From the NCBI GenBank assembly GCA_964016885.1, contig OZ024740.1, positions 429,102,001-429,166,000 on the forward strand: 64,000 nucleotides of DNA, in the 5' to 3' direction. Positions within the stretch are counted from its first letter, which is position 1. The number at the start of each line of letters is the position of its first letter. Source of the stretch: Eledone cirrhosa (Eukaryota). The notes beneath the pieces are model-generated. The model did no database searches and had not been told where the DNA came from. It saw nothing but the letters and a program-made list of their open reading frames with translations. A program made the translations under genes and the position numbers. Positions 27,201-60,556 of the stretch are shown in pieces.

Positions 27201-27573
27201 ATATATATATATATATATATATATATATATATATATATATATATATATATATATATATAGTGACGGAACATAAGTCAATTGCATGAACTCATAATCCTTT
27301 ATTTACTGCTATATATATATATATATATATATATATATATATATATATATATATATATATATATATATATATATATATATATATATATATATATATAAAT
27401 ACATAAACGGAGAAAGCTAATAGTGATACTCCGGCCAAATTCCAACTCACTCAACAAACATTAGGAAATACCTGAGTATATTCCTAATTAAACGTTCGGG
27501 GTGCTAAACTATATTGTATTGTGTGGTGAATTGGCTATATCATTTCATATGAGATATATCAAATATATCTCTT

Positions 27574-27696
27574 CCCAGACGACTCGTTTCATTATAAGAT
27601 TTCTGCAAGGTGGGTGAAATTATACCAAGTTATGTAGAAGCTTGTATAAGATCAACAGATACTTATACAAGTGGGCTCTTATAATTCTTCAGTGGG
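27574..27696 (-). ncRNA. Type I hammerhead with about 80-nt structured insertion in stem II
   Basis: ccca-CTGAAGA-attataag[79 nt containing a 10-bp hairpin]cttataat-GAAA-cgagtcg-TC-tggg. Confidence 0.7.
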
Positions 27697-28525
27697 TGCC
27701 CAATAATATTAATATTGATAACCAAATCAACATCAATATTTAGCGATAATCACCATCAGTGCTTGAGGGAGCTGCTAGGTTGTTAGTCCAGCAGTTCTAA
27801 AGAAAGTCTCACATTGTCACGAAAATAGGAGGAAAGAGACTACCGCCAAAACAATACATACGCAGGTAGTTGAATTCCGATAAGAATTCAAGCCACGTGC
27901 TCAGAACTCAATTGGATATGAAAAAATAACCATATGTGCGCTTCGCTTAATGACCCATATAGATATTTTCTCGGGCAAAATAACAGAATGAGATACAAGA
28001 ACAAACAGTCAATATTCATATTTAAAAATATATATATATATATAAAAAATATATATATATATATATATATATATTCATTCATATATTTTTTTAATTTGTC
28101 TGACCCGAATTTTCTTGGTCGTATTTTTGGCTGTGCGAATGATTGTTTAAGCATCGTCTCAGTGTGTTGGTATTAAACGTTAGTTATGGGTCTGGTTTAT
28201 CCGAACTATTGAGCACTTTGACATACATTTCGAAGATTGTATTTCGTTACTTCGTGGGCTGAAGTTCCGATTCTCGATAATTTATTTATATATATATATA
28301 TATATATATATATTGTATTCACTTTAATTAGTTTATTTCATGCTAGCTAACTTTGTCTCTTACAATACAAACACGTTTTGTGTTTATCATATATATTAAT
28401 ATATAACTTGTATTTCACTGCTCAGAAATGCCTCTTTCTTTGAGCTGATTAATTGTAAACGACTATGAGTTTAATCTCTAAATATAATATAGTATATATA
28501 TATATATATATATATATATATATAT

Positions 28526-28730
28526 ATGGGTTTGTTTTTATTAACCTGTTGGTTTTCTCGTTGCTTCGGTGTCGTGGCTGGGCTTGCCTGCCACAGTTTC
28601 AATCTGTCATGCCGTCTAACGAATGTTGTTACTCTGAGATTCCTCATCGAGTGCTCGGCTGCCCAATTCCTCATTGTATCTCGTTGGCTTGGCTACAGAC
28701 GAAGCTTCGATTTTACTAAACTTCCATTTA
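28526..28730 (+). mobile_element. Short (TA)-flanked element 3' end, related to 35295-35492
   Basis: Colinear diverged sequence with the bulged hairpin ACTC-TGAG..CTCA-TC-GAGT. Confidence 0.55.
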
Positions 28731-30026
28731 TATATATATATATATATATATATATAATATATATATATATATATATATATATATATATATATATATATAT
28801 ATATATATATATATATATATACAGACAGAAAGAAAGAGAGGGGCGGAGGACTGGTGAAAGATATCTCGGTCAATTTAATGTAGAGTTAACTGTCTTGGTT
28901 CTTTTGTTTTGTATATATATATATATATATATATATATATGTACGATATTAAATAAATGGAAACTATATTTATAAAATCATATTTATTTCATTATATATA
29001 TTTCAGGGATATCATATTAAAAATATGGTATGCCTTCATCAGACAAAATACAATATAAACAGTCTTATAAATAGATAGATTTGACATACCTTATATATAT
29101 ATATATATATATATATATACAGAGATAGACAGATAATAGGAATAGGCAGACAAATGTAGATGGGAAGAAATATAAACGTATGCTTCCAGCTTCCTGCAAT
29201 GAAAATGTCAAAATTTTGTTTTTAATTTCATGCTAATATTCGTAATATTCGGAAAATATGTTGTGGGAAACAAAGTCAGGTTGGGGAAGTATACGGTTAT
29301 TTTAGGTACACACACACAGACACACACACATACTAATATACTCTACTGTTCCAAGTATTGAGTGCTCTATTGAGTAATGGTATCACTAGTTTAAAACGGG
29401 TTCTTTCCTCATATATATTGTGTCACTATTACCTTACTTATTGTGATTACTCTGAGGAATAATTTATTGATTACTTTCTCATTGGGTGCTTTATGGTAGC
29501 CTTCTAAAATTGATTGCGAATCTCCTACTTGCAGCTGCAACTTCGGTTATACTCATTATTATATATATATATTGGAAAATGTGTTTGATCCTTGGTACAG
29601 TTAGGTATATTTGAAAAAAAGGAAAAGAATGACTTCATTTGTAGTTCTAAATAATATATATATATATATATATGTATGTATGTATGTATGTATGTATGTA
29701 TGTATGTATGTATGTATGTATGTATGTATGTATGTATGTTTGTGTGTGTGGGTAAGTAACTGTGTCACAATATACATAATATCTCAATTAAAAGAGATTG
29801 CTAAAATAATCTCATTCAGAGAAGCAAATACATATAGAACATCTTATTGGAAATCACTGGGATAAAAACAGTTATCCTTACCGCGGTTTTAAAATCCAAG
29901 GAATAACAGATAGCCCTTCAATAAATTGATAAGGCCACCGTTAACAGAAGGGACTTCTCTTCGGAGGATTTCTTCTGTAAGGTATAAGAAAATTATATAT
30001 ATATATATATATATATATATATATAT

Positions 30027-58620: not shown

Positions 58621-58947
58621 ATATATATATATATATATATATATATATATATATATATATATATATGTATGTATATATATATATATATGTATGTATATAT
58701 ATATATATATATATATATATATATATATATATATATATATATATATATATATATATATATATATATTCGGTATACAAGGATGCTATTCATTTCTAACACT
58801 GAACACCATATTGCCAATGACAGGGGTGACGGAGTATATTAATAAAGATGAAAATGCGAAGGGACAACCAAAGCAAAAGCACATCTTTTTAGTCCGCTTC
58901 CTTCCAAATAAAATTGCCTCAGAAATGTTACCTGTTAATCAATGTTT

Positions 58948-58998
58948 GCTGTCTGAAGAGATCACGATGTTTATCGTCATTGAAATATATATAACAGC
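58948..58998 (+). ncRNA. Minimal type I hammerhead ribozyme
   Basis: gctgt-CTGAAGA-gatc-acgat/gttt/atcgt-catt-GAAA-tatata-TA-acagc, then AATAAA. Confidence 0.75.
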
Positions 58999-59730
58999 TC
59001 AATAAAGGACTCTAACATCTTCAACTTCGCATGCCGGGGTTAACTTTGCCTTTCATCTTTACGGCGTCGATAAAAAAATTACCAGTAATACACTGGTTAA
59101 TTGCTGGCCTTGTGCCAAAAGTAGAAACAATTATATATATATATATATATGTGTGTGTGTGTGTGTATGTGTGTGTGTTTGTGTATCCATACATGATAAA
59201 CAGGTGAAACTCCGGAGTAACAAGGCTCACCATTTAGCCATGCTTCCCAGGATAAATCGCAAGCCCATCGCCAGTTTTTACAGCAGGAAATGGAGACTGC
59301 AATATATTTTTTGAAGAAGCACCACTACCTCTGGATCCGTTAATAAATTAGTTGTCTAATGTGATGAATTTTAGATTGTGTGACGTAATTCCATGCTATA
59401 TCTATTTCGACGATTTCTATCAAGAGAGGTAGAGAGATAGAGACGGCATAGCTACACATTTCTCCGCCTCTCTTAACTTTTGAAATTCATCAAACTTGTG
59501 AAACCGGTAAAGTTATAAGTTATTGTATATAAACATTTTTAAAGACTTCACTTGCATTTTCAACTGTTTTTCCTATATTTTTACCCGTGTGAGATATATT
59601 TTTAAAAAAAACTTATTTTCGAATACACACACACACACACACACACACACACACACATATATATATATATATATATATATATATATATATATATATATAT
59701 ATATATATATATATATATATATATATATAT

Positions 59731-60260
59731 GTAGATAAATCTACCAAAAGTTTACGGTAGTGTCCAATCCGTATGAAGAACTCAATGTAATCCGGATATC
59801 ATGAAAAAAAGAGATGCATTCAAAAATCACTTTCGGTGAAAGATAAACGGAAAACAGAGTCAAGATAAATTATTAAAAAAAATAATGAATAAACAAAGAA
59901 ACAGTTCCTTATATTAAACAAAAAAGTTCATTATTTTACGATCGTTTCTAGGACATATATGTGTTAGAATTGGTATGCATATTCAAAAGATCTATGTACA
60001 AAATTATACAAACTATCAGAGGGAATATACATACCTTCACATATATATGCTGTCTTCATTATTTCTGAAGACAGCATATATATGTGAAGGTATGTATATT
60101 CCCTCTGATAGTTTGTATAATTTTGTACATAGATCTTTTGAATATGCATACCAATTCTAACACATATATGTCCTAGAAACGATCGTAAAATAATGAACTT
60201 TTTTGTTTAATATAAGGAACTGTTTCTTTGTTTATTCATTATTTTTTTTTAATAATTTAT
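59731..60260. mobile_element. Foldback insertion (arms 59865-60058 / 60066-60260) with hammerhead 60055-60197 (+)
   Basis: 10-bp stem I ttcattattt/aaataatgaa, CTGAAGA, ~100-nt stem II hairpin, GAAA-cgatcg-TA. Confidence 0.85.
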
Positions 60261-60556
60261 ATATATATATATATATATATATATATATATATATATATAT
60301 ATATATGAAAAAGAAATTAAAGATGCAAAAAAGTCTTTAAGAAGATTTAGTTACAATAATTATTTTCAGAGGTACTGAGCTGTTTCATCAATACGTCCTC
60401 ATCATGGTGTTTTGAGGTAATATTAATAACTCCAGAAAACCTCTTTGTTGAGTGCTTCTAATCTATTGTAAAACTTAATGATGGTTTTATATATATATAT
60501 ATATATATATATATATATATATATATATATATATATATATATATATATATATATAT

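What the first reader, a model, noticed from the sequence alone, without database searches (positions are those of the whole stretch)
27449..60455. Conserved bulged RNA hairpin (RCTC-stem...stem-2 nt-GAGY) at the 3' ends of about 15 otherwise unrelated (TA)-anchored elements
Seen in sequence: the same fold recurs with different upper stems and loops. Examples: ACTC-TGAG/CTCA-TC-GAGT (28631), GCTC-AGAAA/TTTCT-TT-GAGC (28420), ACTC-TACT/AGTA-TT-GAGT (29340, and 35041-35064 minus), ACTC-TGAG/CTCA-TT-GGGT (29449), ACTC-TGAGG/CCTTG-TC-GAGT (35390), ACTC-CAAGA/TCTTG-TT-GAGT (52890), GCTC-TA/TA-TC-GAGC (54214), ACTC-CGG/CCG-TA-GAGT (54501), GCTC-TGA/TCA-TT-GAGC (58261), ACTC-TGC/GTA-TT-GAGT (58554, decayed at 33337), ACTC-CAG/TTG-TT-GAGT (60429), ACTC-TGT/ACA-TT-GAGT (59780-59860 minus), ACCC-CGAAC/GTTTG-TT-GAGT (27449-27502 minus). 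The first pair covaries (A-T versus G-C), the upper stem covaries freely, the 3'-side 2-nt bulge always starts with U, and the loop ranges from 3 to about 60 nt. Where a hammerhead is visible the hairpin lies downstream of it on the same strand, usually tens of nt before the (TA)n junction. Inference: a cis signal bound by a Penelope-like RT/endonuclease to position the RNA 3' end for priming. I know of no description of this motif.
Basis: partly seen in the sequence, partly recalled or inferred. Interest (0 to 1): 0.9.

Follow-up and report, generated by a model that had tools for sequence, protein, structure and literature searches.

The report
Double start signal of Hydra retrotransposons
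A small bulged hairpin occurs twice in front of the gene of Hydra-clade Penelope-like jumping elements, here and in distant relatives, and the two arms of an inserted copy almost always end just before the first and the second hairpin, so the hairpins likely tell the element's enzyme where to start copying on each target strand.

Summary
The hairpin is real: 14 hits against 0.8 in shuffles in the window, and 43 vs 11 and 66 vs 16 in two held-out genome samples. The elements are not unrelated and not Naiads: those I could trace are pLTR tails of Hydra-clade Penelope-like elements. Full-length copies carry the hairpin twice in the 5' UTR, between hammerhead and start codon. The same holds for distant Hydra elements picked by protein alone (36 of 50 sense, 2 antisense), with a U-led 2-nt bulge (59 of 60) and compensatory pairs above it. 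Insertion ends map 5' of a hairpin, not 3': 80 of 85 (TA)n junctions lie within 20 nt upstream of hairpin 1 or 2. In 38 of 39 two-armed inverted insertions one arm ends at each. Best reading (0.7): protein-binding signals that place two internal reverse-transcription starts, one per target strand; this would explain the PLE tail and inverted arm. Main rival: a hairpin-guided cut. No binding or priming was tested. Seven literature searches found no description. This scan reached the same reading twice before on other pieces of this genome.

The parts
27449..27502 (-). Hairpin 1, variant with one lower-stem mismatch (ACCC/GAGT); parent element not traced
   Evidence: (TA)n 51 nt downstream
28420..28445 (+). 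Hairpin 1 (GCTC/GAGC, 5-bp upper stem); parent not traced; homologues in random genome stretches
28631..28652 (+). Hairpin 1, family shared with 35390 and 29449; parent not traced
29340..29363 (+). Hairpin 1; found by the model built from metagenome elements alone
   Evidence: E 0.011
29449..29487 (+). Hairpin 1 with a U.G wobble in the lower stem
30028..31351 (+). 5'-truncated, frameshifted RT + C-terminal GIY-YIG ORF of a Hydra-clade element (family A; full-length relative L088)
33262..33312 (+). Type I hammerhead motif in the 3' pLTR of the family A copy
   Evidence: own pattern scan; not matched by Rfam
33337..33355 (+). Decayed hairpin 1 of family A; the copy ends at (TA)n 33400, about 7 nt before where hairpin 2 (GCAC/GTGC variant) stands in L088
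33704..33749 (-). Hairpin 1 of family B (full-length relative L102)
33923..34503 (-). ORF-less unit of about 520 nt in partial tandem: hairpin 1 (34408-34431, GTTC/GAAC), hairpin 2 (34302-34323), hammerhead core (34007-34045), end at (TA)n
   Evidence: no coding remnant at E<=0.01
35041..35064 (-). Hairpin 1 of family H; inverted arm 35073-35183 ends 5-8 nt before it; hairpin 2 found in full-length L155/L208 6 nt past the tail end
35390..35414 (+). Hairpin 1, homologous to 28631
51750..52483 (-). Second ORF-less unit of the same kind: hairpin 1 at 52243-52266 (-) and in the inverted arm at 52380-52403 (+); hairpin 2 variant at 52126-52150 (-)
52890..52958 (+). Hairpin 1 with a 49-nt loop; inverted arm 52637-52879 ends 5-7 nt before it; parent not traced
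54214..54258 (+). Hairpin 1 of family B
54501..54528 (+). Hairpin 1; palindrome 54376-54491 ends 9 nt before it; parent not traced
58261..58300 (+). Hairpin 1 (GCTC/GAGC); parent not traced
58432..58535 (.). Two inverted hammerhead motifs (58479-58535 +, 58432-58488 -) of a family A2 insertion
58554..58572 (+). Hairpin 1 of family A2 (full-length relative L141, 109 nt before the ATG)
59780..59860 (-). Hairpin 1 of family C (full-length relative L122), 65-nt loop; palindrome 59868-60257 ends 7 nt before it
60429..60453 (+). Hairpin 1, homologous to 54501
60606..60686 (-).

Best explanation
The hairpin is a conserved element of Hydra-clade Penelope-like retrotransposons that stands twice in the 5' UTR, and each copy likely binds the element's RT-endonuclease and places an internal start of reverse transcription a few bases 5' of itself. 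Shown: order hammerhead - hairpin 1 - hairpin 2 - ATG; conservation of RCUC/GAGY, the U-led 2-nt bulge, the paired bases above it and an RCUY tail; sense-strand bias; ends of genomic copies just 5' of either hairpin; one arm per hairpin in inverted insertions. Inferred: a read-through transcript carries this UTR 3' of the ORF; the protein, probably as a dimer, nicks both strands of a (TA)n target; each free (TA)n 3' end pairs with the UA-rich stretch just 5' of a hairpin and primes cDNA. The start at hairpin 2 copies hairpin 1 and gives the arm with the 'tail'; the start at hairpin 1 gives the inverted, tail-less arm. The tail is then simply the stretch between the two starts.
For: Hairpin 1 in the 5' UTR of autonomous families A, A2, B, C, D and H; 1-nt-bulge variant in E. 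Second hairpin predicted in my note, then found 6 nt past the known tail end in family H. Random-stretch junctions: 80 of 85 within 20 nt 5' of a hairpin (42 and 38); 137 of 139 with two more families, the window and a -20..+4 limit. Two-arm insertions: 38 of 39 use site 1 plus site 2, none 1+1 or 2+2 (38 of 38 against one half, p 7e-12). Elements chosen by protein alone from metagenome contigs: 36 of 50 5' UTRs hit on the sense strand, 2 antisense, 0.86 in shuffles. Anchored on sequence only, 60 sites in 35 of 40 ORF clusters: bulge starts with U in 59; first upper pair formed in 57 at a 2-nt bulge against 0, 2, 6 and 18 at 0, 1, 3 and 4 nt; U-A/C-G switches at least 4 times on the ORF tree, both sides together. 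9 of 15 informative 3' repeat ends there lie 0-6 nt 5' of a hairpin. TATA-like 4-mer ending 2 nt before RCTC in 23 of 59 sites vs 9% background. G.U 31 vs A.C 8 in upper stems. A Poseidon PLE starts RT internally at two sites that bracket the tail, extends both target strands and is predicted to dimerise (PMC11167929).
Against: No binding, priming or RNA structure was measured. The biochemical precedent is from another clade, where RT starts inside an AC-rich stem-loop, and this motif was not seen in Neptune/Poseidon-type loci here. Folding predicts the lower stem on either strand and as DNA or RNA, and gives the first pair above the bulge a median probability of only 0.23-0.29, so RNA versus single-stranded DNA is not settled and the bulged form would need protein to hold it. 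G.U vs A.C is weak in the metagenome set (13 vs 8). Hairpin 2 departs from the pattern in families A/A2 (no bulge, GCAC/GTGC) and E, and was picked after the junctions were known there. Junction positions blur by several nt because of TA microhomology, and reach -17 to -20 in families A/A2. 4 of 15 metagenome repeat ends lie far from any hairpin. Covariation was not tested with R-scape.
Confidence: 0.7

Rival explanations
1. The hairpin guides a cut, not a start: the element's GIY-YIG domain recognises it in a sense-strand nucleic acid (RNA or single-stranded DNA intermediate) and cleaves a few bases 5' of it, and these cuts fix the two ends.
For: SsnA, a stand-alone GIY-YIG nuclease, binds a sequence-specific ssDNA hairpin, ignores the loop, is directional and cuts a few nt upstream (PMC11893778): the same geometry as here. 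Craig et al. ascribe the tail to endonuclease resolution. Folding does not separate DNA from RNA.
Against: SsnA does not act on RNA, and a cut sense DNA strand would still have to be joined to the target. The Poseidon protein starts RT internally on RNA. The TATA-like stretch before the hairpin suits primer pairing.
Confidence: 0.17
2. The hairpin directs RNA processing (host nuclease, or self-cleavage) just 5' of itself, making RNA 3' ends that are then primed as in ordinary target-primed reverse transcription. This is closest to the first reader's idea.
For: Ends cluster 5' of each hairpin; HDV-type ribozymes and RNase P cut 5' of their folds (recalled).
Against: One RNA cut at site 1 loses site 2, so the strict 1+2 pairing of arms (38 of 39) would need two differently cut RNAs per event. 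The motif is about 20 nt with free loops of 3-110 nt and matches no Rfam family in the window.
Confidence: 0.07
3. The hairpins serve translation control or RNA packaging (an operator bound by the element's protein), and the ends are set only by UA-rich microhomology to the (TA)n primer that happens to lie beside them.
For: Hairpin 2 lies 40-71 nt before the start codon; the junctions show TA microhomology.
Against: Longer TA tracts in the same UTRs are seldom used (in L344, 1 junction upstream against 17 beside hairpin 1). ORF-less units keep both hairpins. It does not explain one arm per site.
Confidence: 0.05
4. Chance or mere inheritance of a short palindrome with no function.
For: The genome is rich in inverted repeats, and two control stem words were somewhat enriched.
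Against: Bulge-length and strand specificity, compensatory change, and conservation across ORFs only about 40-55% identical.
Confidence: 0.01

Closest known systems
Hydra clade of C-terminal EN+ Penelope-like elements (Craig et al. 2021, PMC8557442)
   Same: Protein motifs, hammerhead in the pLTR, (TA)n targets, inverted 5'-truncated arm, tail at one end only. The hairpin can be read by eye in 3 of the 6 published consensus sequences exactly (Hydra-2_Amil, Hydra-1_Ajap twice, Hydra-2_Ajap), as variants in Hydra-1_Crog and Hydra-1_Obim, and not clearly in Hydra-1_Amil.
   Different: The paper reports no such hairpin in the passages, section and supplement parts I saw ('hairpin' 0 times), and ascribes the tail to endonuclease resolution. 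Tails here are 60-170 nt, not 30-40.
Internal RT initiation in Poseidon_Ac (Frangieh et al. 2024, PMC11167929)
   Same: Two internal starts that bracket the tail, downstream of the hammerhead; both target strands extended; protein-binding region inferred nearby; predicted dimer.
   Different: Another clade; starts lie inside the ORF in an AC-rich stem-loop; no binding motif mapped, no repeated hairpin, and no assignment of one start to each arm.
SsnA / NTS system (PMC11893778)
   Same: GIY-YIG protein, hairpin read by sequence and structure, loop-tolerant, directional, acts a few nt 5' of the hairpin.
   Different: Bacterial stand-alone ssDNA nuclease, no RT, no RNA activity; no sequence likeness to this motif was tested.
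3'-terminal RT-recognition structures of non-LTR elements (R2 3' UTR, LINE/SINE stem-loops) and protein-binding elements of telomerase RNA (recalled)
   Same: Short RNA structure that recruits an RT and sets where copying begins; internal template start as in telomerase, the sister group of PLE RTs.
   Different: In R2 and LINEs the signal is single, lies 5' of the start and is copied; here it is double and lies 3' of the start. Resemblance from memory, not tested.
Metazoan non-LTR retrozymes (PMC7229834; bioRxiv 10.64898/2026.07.22.740005)
   Same: ORF-less, hammerhead-bearing repeats thought to be moved by PLEs; the window's 520-560-nt units look alike.
   Different: Neither text holds 'hairpin' or 'bulge'; the units here keep both hairpins and end at the same two kinds of site, which would supply the missing mobilisation signal.

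Membership tests
Hydra-clade PLE | Single ORF, RT with C-terminal GIY-YIG, no N-terminal EN | tested here: met
   L141 713 aa and L088 translations
Hydra-clade PLE | DKG changed to DKT; N-terminal RWK motif | tested here: met
   DKT present; RWR in place of RWK
Hydra-clade PLE | CxCX5C linker; CCHH absent; CxxC and CxH near the C-terminus | tested here: met
   All seen
Hydra-clade PLE | Hammerhead in the pLTR and (TA)n targeting | tested here: met
   self-cleavage not tested; no hammerhead core was found by my pattern in families B and C
Hydra-clade PLE | Element shorter than about 3 kb | tested here: not met
   UTRs swollen by microsatellites; tandem spacing about 4.0 kb (family D) and 6.6 kb (family C). 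Described as 'generally', so not counted against membership.
Hydra-clade PLE | Groups with reference Hydra RTs in a tree | not tested
   Published reference sequences could not be put into the tree; likeness judged by motifs
Naiad PLE | N-terminal GIY-YIG, CxC domain, DKA, no canonical hammerhead | tested here: not met
Neptune PLE | DKG, CX2-5CxxC linker, CCHH | tested here: not met
   Absent from the hairpin-bearing ORFs; present in other elements of this genome whose own ends lack the hairpin
Rfam RNA families (4227) | Match to a curated covariance model | tested here: not met
   No match over the gathering score; no listed match lies on a short-loop hairpin except one sub-threshold 209-nt viral UTR hit over a (TA)n-rich palindrome
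RT-positioning RNA signal | Binds the RT and sets the start site | not testable with these tools
   Positional evidence only
Non-LTR retrozyme (ORF-less units at 33923 and 51750) | Tandem ORF-less repeat with type I hammerhead, expressed as circular RNA | tested here: inconclusive
   ORF-less, partial tandem, hammerhead core present; two consecutive full units and circles not shown

The most novel reading that the evidence does not exclude
Hydra-clade elements integrate by coordinated double priming: one RNA, two protein-bound bulged hairpins, two RT active sites and two nicked (TA)n strands, with telomerase-like primer pairing just 5' of each hairpin. A portable signal of about 20 nt plus a UA stretch would then set an internal RT start on any RNA, account for the PLE tail and inverted arm, and license ORF-less hammerhead RNAs for mobilisation.
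Probability: 0.5. Interest if true: 0.9.

Novelty: new variant of a known kind. Interest (0 to 1): 0.8.

Why it matters
How Penelope-like elements choose their start sites, and why insertions have a tail at one end and an inverted arm at the other, has been open for two decades; the one in vitro study left the binding motif unmapped. This gives a short, covarying, clade-wide motif with a precise geometric rule (one arm per hairpin), which makes the question testable with a handful of point mutants. PLE RTs are the sister group of telomerase, so the way they hold an internal template bears on telomerase origins. The motif also marks an estimated 2.6 x 10^5 insertion ends in this genome (87 hits in 990 kb), and offers a simple annotation tag for Hydra elements and their ORF-less derivatives.

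Tried and rejected
Neptune assignment (my first guess, note): dropped. Pfam on the window's ORF pieces gave nothing useful. Rfam: nothing. The '5'-side bulge' control (94 hits) is the same motif read from the other strand, not an independent control. A first crude mapping of inverted-arm ends was noisy and was replaced by alignment to 5' UTRs. In one search, 38 of 50 family C 'junctions' were alignments to a simple repeat inside the loop of hairpin 2, and hairpin 2 of family E was mis-set; both were corrected (alignments need 35 non-simple nt). loci were partly fetched with a tail query, so only random stretches were counted for the headline figures. Searches used a structure off by four columns and are void; redone. 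Expression: no RNA holder listed; no reads were laid. No Hydra-like protein in viral contigs or phages. A text search of the published Naiad and Chlamys consensus files for six 8-9-mers of the motif's 3' half gave 12 hits outside the Hydra file, none with the full hairpin in the context shown; this is a weak control (exact words, wrapped lines). GAGY-RCUY as a dimerisation palindrome: imperfect in most elements, not pursued. Hairpin as a partner for hammerhead helix III: helix III varies independently, rejected. No dimer prediction was run: two copies exceed the tool's size limit.
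Full report
Observation. With the descriptor RCTC - stem of 3 or more pairs - loop up to 70 - stem - UN - GAGY, the non-simple part of the window (30,662 nt) holds 14 hits against 0.78+-0.92 in 300 dinucleotide shuffles; bulges of 0, 1 and 3 nt are not enriched. 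Of 113 hits, 84 have (TA)n 30-130 nt downstream on the same strand, against 11% of plain GAGY words. With the outer pair left free, A-T (61) and G-C (26) dominate 112 hits and A-C occurs twice. G.U pairs outnumber A.C 31 to 8 in the upper stem, which points to the sense strand. Against this, two other stem words were also above their shuffle means (26 vs 11.6; 30 vs 17.2), and the single hairpins fold only weakly. Rfam has no family for it.

What carries it. The window holds a 5'-truncated RT plus C-terminal GIY-YIG ORF at 30028-31351 whose 3' pLTR includes the hammerhead at 33262 and the decayed hairpin at 33337. Full-length relatives show the same hammerhead and hairpin in the 5' UTR, 108 nt before the ATG (L088). 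Searches with other RT fragments gave further autonomous families, about 39-75% identical in protein, with the hairpin at -109 (A2), -127 (B), -283 (C) and -130 (D); family E has a 1-nt bulge. Seven of 21 window hairpins map onto such 5' UTRs at 93-99% identity; the parents of the others were not traced. The proteins have DKT, GLYRDD, a CxCX5C linker, CxxC and CxH, and lack CCHH: the marks of the Hydra clade in Craig et al. 2021 (PMC8557442, section 11; supplement). They are not Naiads. Neptune- and Poseidon-type elements of the same genome (30 loci; 20 longer loci) showed no hairpin at their own ends; the hits in those loci were neighbouring Hydra insertions. That control is partial: only one locus showed a clear 5' junction.

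Two hairpins. Full-length copies have a second hairpin just past the point where genomic tails stop (families B, C, D; noted). This was then borne out in family H (window 35041): in L155 and L208 the second hairpin starts 6 nt after the known tail end. Mapping (TA)n junctions from the 99 random stretches onto six 5' UTRs of 390-540 nt, 80 of 85 lie within 20 nt 5' of hairpin 1 (42) or hairpin 2 (38), mostly at -5 to -10. With two more families, the window added, L208 left out as a reference and a -20..+4 limit, 137 of 139 do. In 39 insertions with two diverging arms, 38 end one arm at site 1 and the other at site 2; none uses the same site twice. In A/A2 and E hairpin 2 is a variant chosen after the junctions were known, so those families count for less.

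Distant relatives. 79 loci were fetched from metagenome contigs by protein likeness alone; 50 had an N-terminus and upstream DNA. 36 of 50 hold the strict motif on the sense strand, 2 on the antisense, 0.86 in shuffles; 30 of 40 ORF clusters. Anchoring on RCTC and GAGY-NC only, with no pairing asked, gave 60 sites in 35 of 40 clusters, 21 clusters with exactly two. The bulge starts with U in 59 of 60; the first upper pair forms in 57 of 60 at a 2-nt bulge and in 0, 2, 6, 18 at 0, 1, 3, 4 nt; in hairpin 1 it is U-A 15 times and C-G 6 times, always paired, switching at least four times on the ORF tree with both sides together. On a MAFFT alignment of 44 sites (the 48 with short loops less 4 irregular ones that I left out by hand) 96.6% of cells pair and 38 change on both sides against 14+-3 in shuffles. 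Spacing is 59-83 nt between hairpins, 40-71 nt to the ATG, 71-103 nt from the hammerhead core. Of 26 3'-repeat alignments, 9 end at a contig end and 2 run on into the ORF; 9 of the other 15 end 0-6 nt 5' of a hairpin, 1 ends 4 nt inside one, 1 ends before a variant hairpin, and 4 end elsewhere. A covariance model built from these sites alone ranks seven of the window's hairpins first among its 14 hits (E 0.003-0.77); it misses long-loop and divergent ones. By eye, the motif is exact in 3 of the 6 published Hydra consensus sequences (coral Hydra-2_Amil; sea cucumber Hydra-1_Ajap, twice, and Hydra-2_Ajap), variant in two and unclear in one.

Mechanism. Shown: position, conservation, covariation, strand, and the one-arm-per-hairpin rule. 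Inferred: the protein binds each hairpin on a read-through RNA, nicks both strands of a (TA)n target, and each nicked strand pairs with the UA-rich stretch just 5' of a hairpin (TATA-like in 23 of 59 sites vs 9% background) and primes cDNA. The precedent is Poseidon_Ac, which starts RT at two internal sites that bracket the tail, extends both strands and is predicted to dimerise (PMC11167929). The strict pairing of sites argues for one coordinated event on one RNA. The main rival is a hairpin-guided cut: the GIY-YIG nuclease SsnA reads a ssDNA hairpin and cuts a few nt upstream (PMC11893778), and folding does not tell RNA from DNA here; it also gives the pair above the bulge a low probability without protein. 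RNA processing and a translational operator are weaker rivals.

ORF-less units. At 33923-34503 and 51750-52483 the window holds units of about 520-560 nt with hairpin 1 (lower stem GTTC/GAAC, a compensatory change at pair 2), hairpin 2 and a hammerhead core, with no coding remnant; relatives occur in 6 of the random stretches. They keep exactly the signals the model needs.

Literature. Seven searches found no description of the motif. Subscription papers and Repbase reports are outside the library, so a prior mention cannot be excluded. Two earlier notes of this scan, on other pieces of this genome, reach the same reading; I saw them after my note, and they are not counted as evidence.

Verdict. 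A real, clade-wide, doubled RNA-type motif of Hydra PLEs that predicts both ends of an insertion. The elements are known; the motif and the rule appear not to be. New variant of a known kind; interest 0.8.

Noticed in passing
window 32069-32458: A 390-nt palindrome nested in the (TA)n of the Hydra copy's 3' UTR; by eye it matches the 3' ends of Neptune-type loci L305, L316 and L318 and lacks the hairpin.
   Followed up: partly
window 33923-34503 (-) and 51750-52483: ORF-less hammerhead units that keep both hairpins; candidate non-autonomous Hydra derivatives or retrozymes.
   Followed up: partly
window 27399-28030 (-): Another unit without coding remnant, with a decayed hammerhead-like stretch about 60 nt before the variant hairpin; distant relatives in L037, L064, L070.
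   Followed up: partly
L161-L180 and L121-L140 (G000): Families D and C are very young (many copies 99-100% identical in protein) and form head-to-tail arrays with spacings of about 4.0 and 6.6 kb; good starting material for biochemistry.
   Followed up: no
L122:5' UTR; L200:5' UTR; L340: Hairpin 2 closes loops of 64-110 nt in families C and E, so the loop is not read.
   Followed up: partly
L352, L363, L377, L393; table: In several Hydra elements hammerhead helix III is ACUC-n-GAGU, the same words as the hairpin's lower stem; it varies independently in others.
   Followed up: partly
window 10051-24596, 39486-41931, 42880-44596, 46042-46754: Large satellite and minisatellite arrays (26-, 3-, 51- and 45-nt units).
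   Followed up: no
window 351-926, 25612-26803: A repeat of about 580 nt in several direct and inverted copies bounded by (TATG)n/(CATA)n rather than (TA)n; type not determined.
   Followed up: no
window 3478-3619, 4681-4803, 6234-6420, 48528-48715, 51053-51182, 56452-56628, 59030-59131: Copies of an abundant tRNA-like SINE; the descriptor hit at 56443-56466 (-) lies inside one and is taken as chance. The SINE resembles those recalled from octopus genomes (memory, not tested).
   Followed up: no
   Followed up: no
window 8860-9714: Another inverted (TA)n-flanked element with hammerhead cores at 9408 (+) and 9049 (-) and no strict hairpin; family not traced.
   Followed up: no
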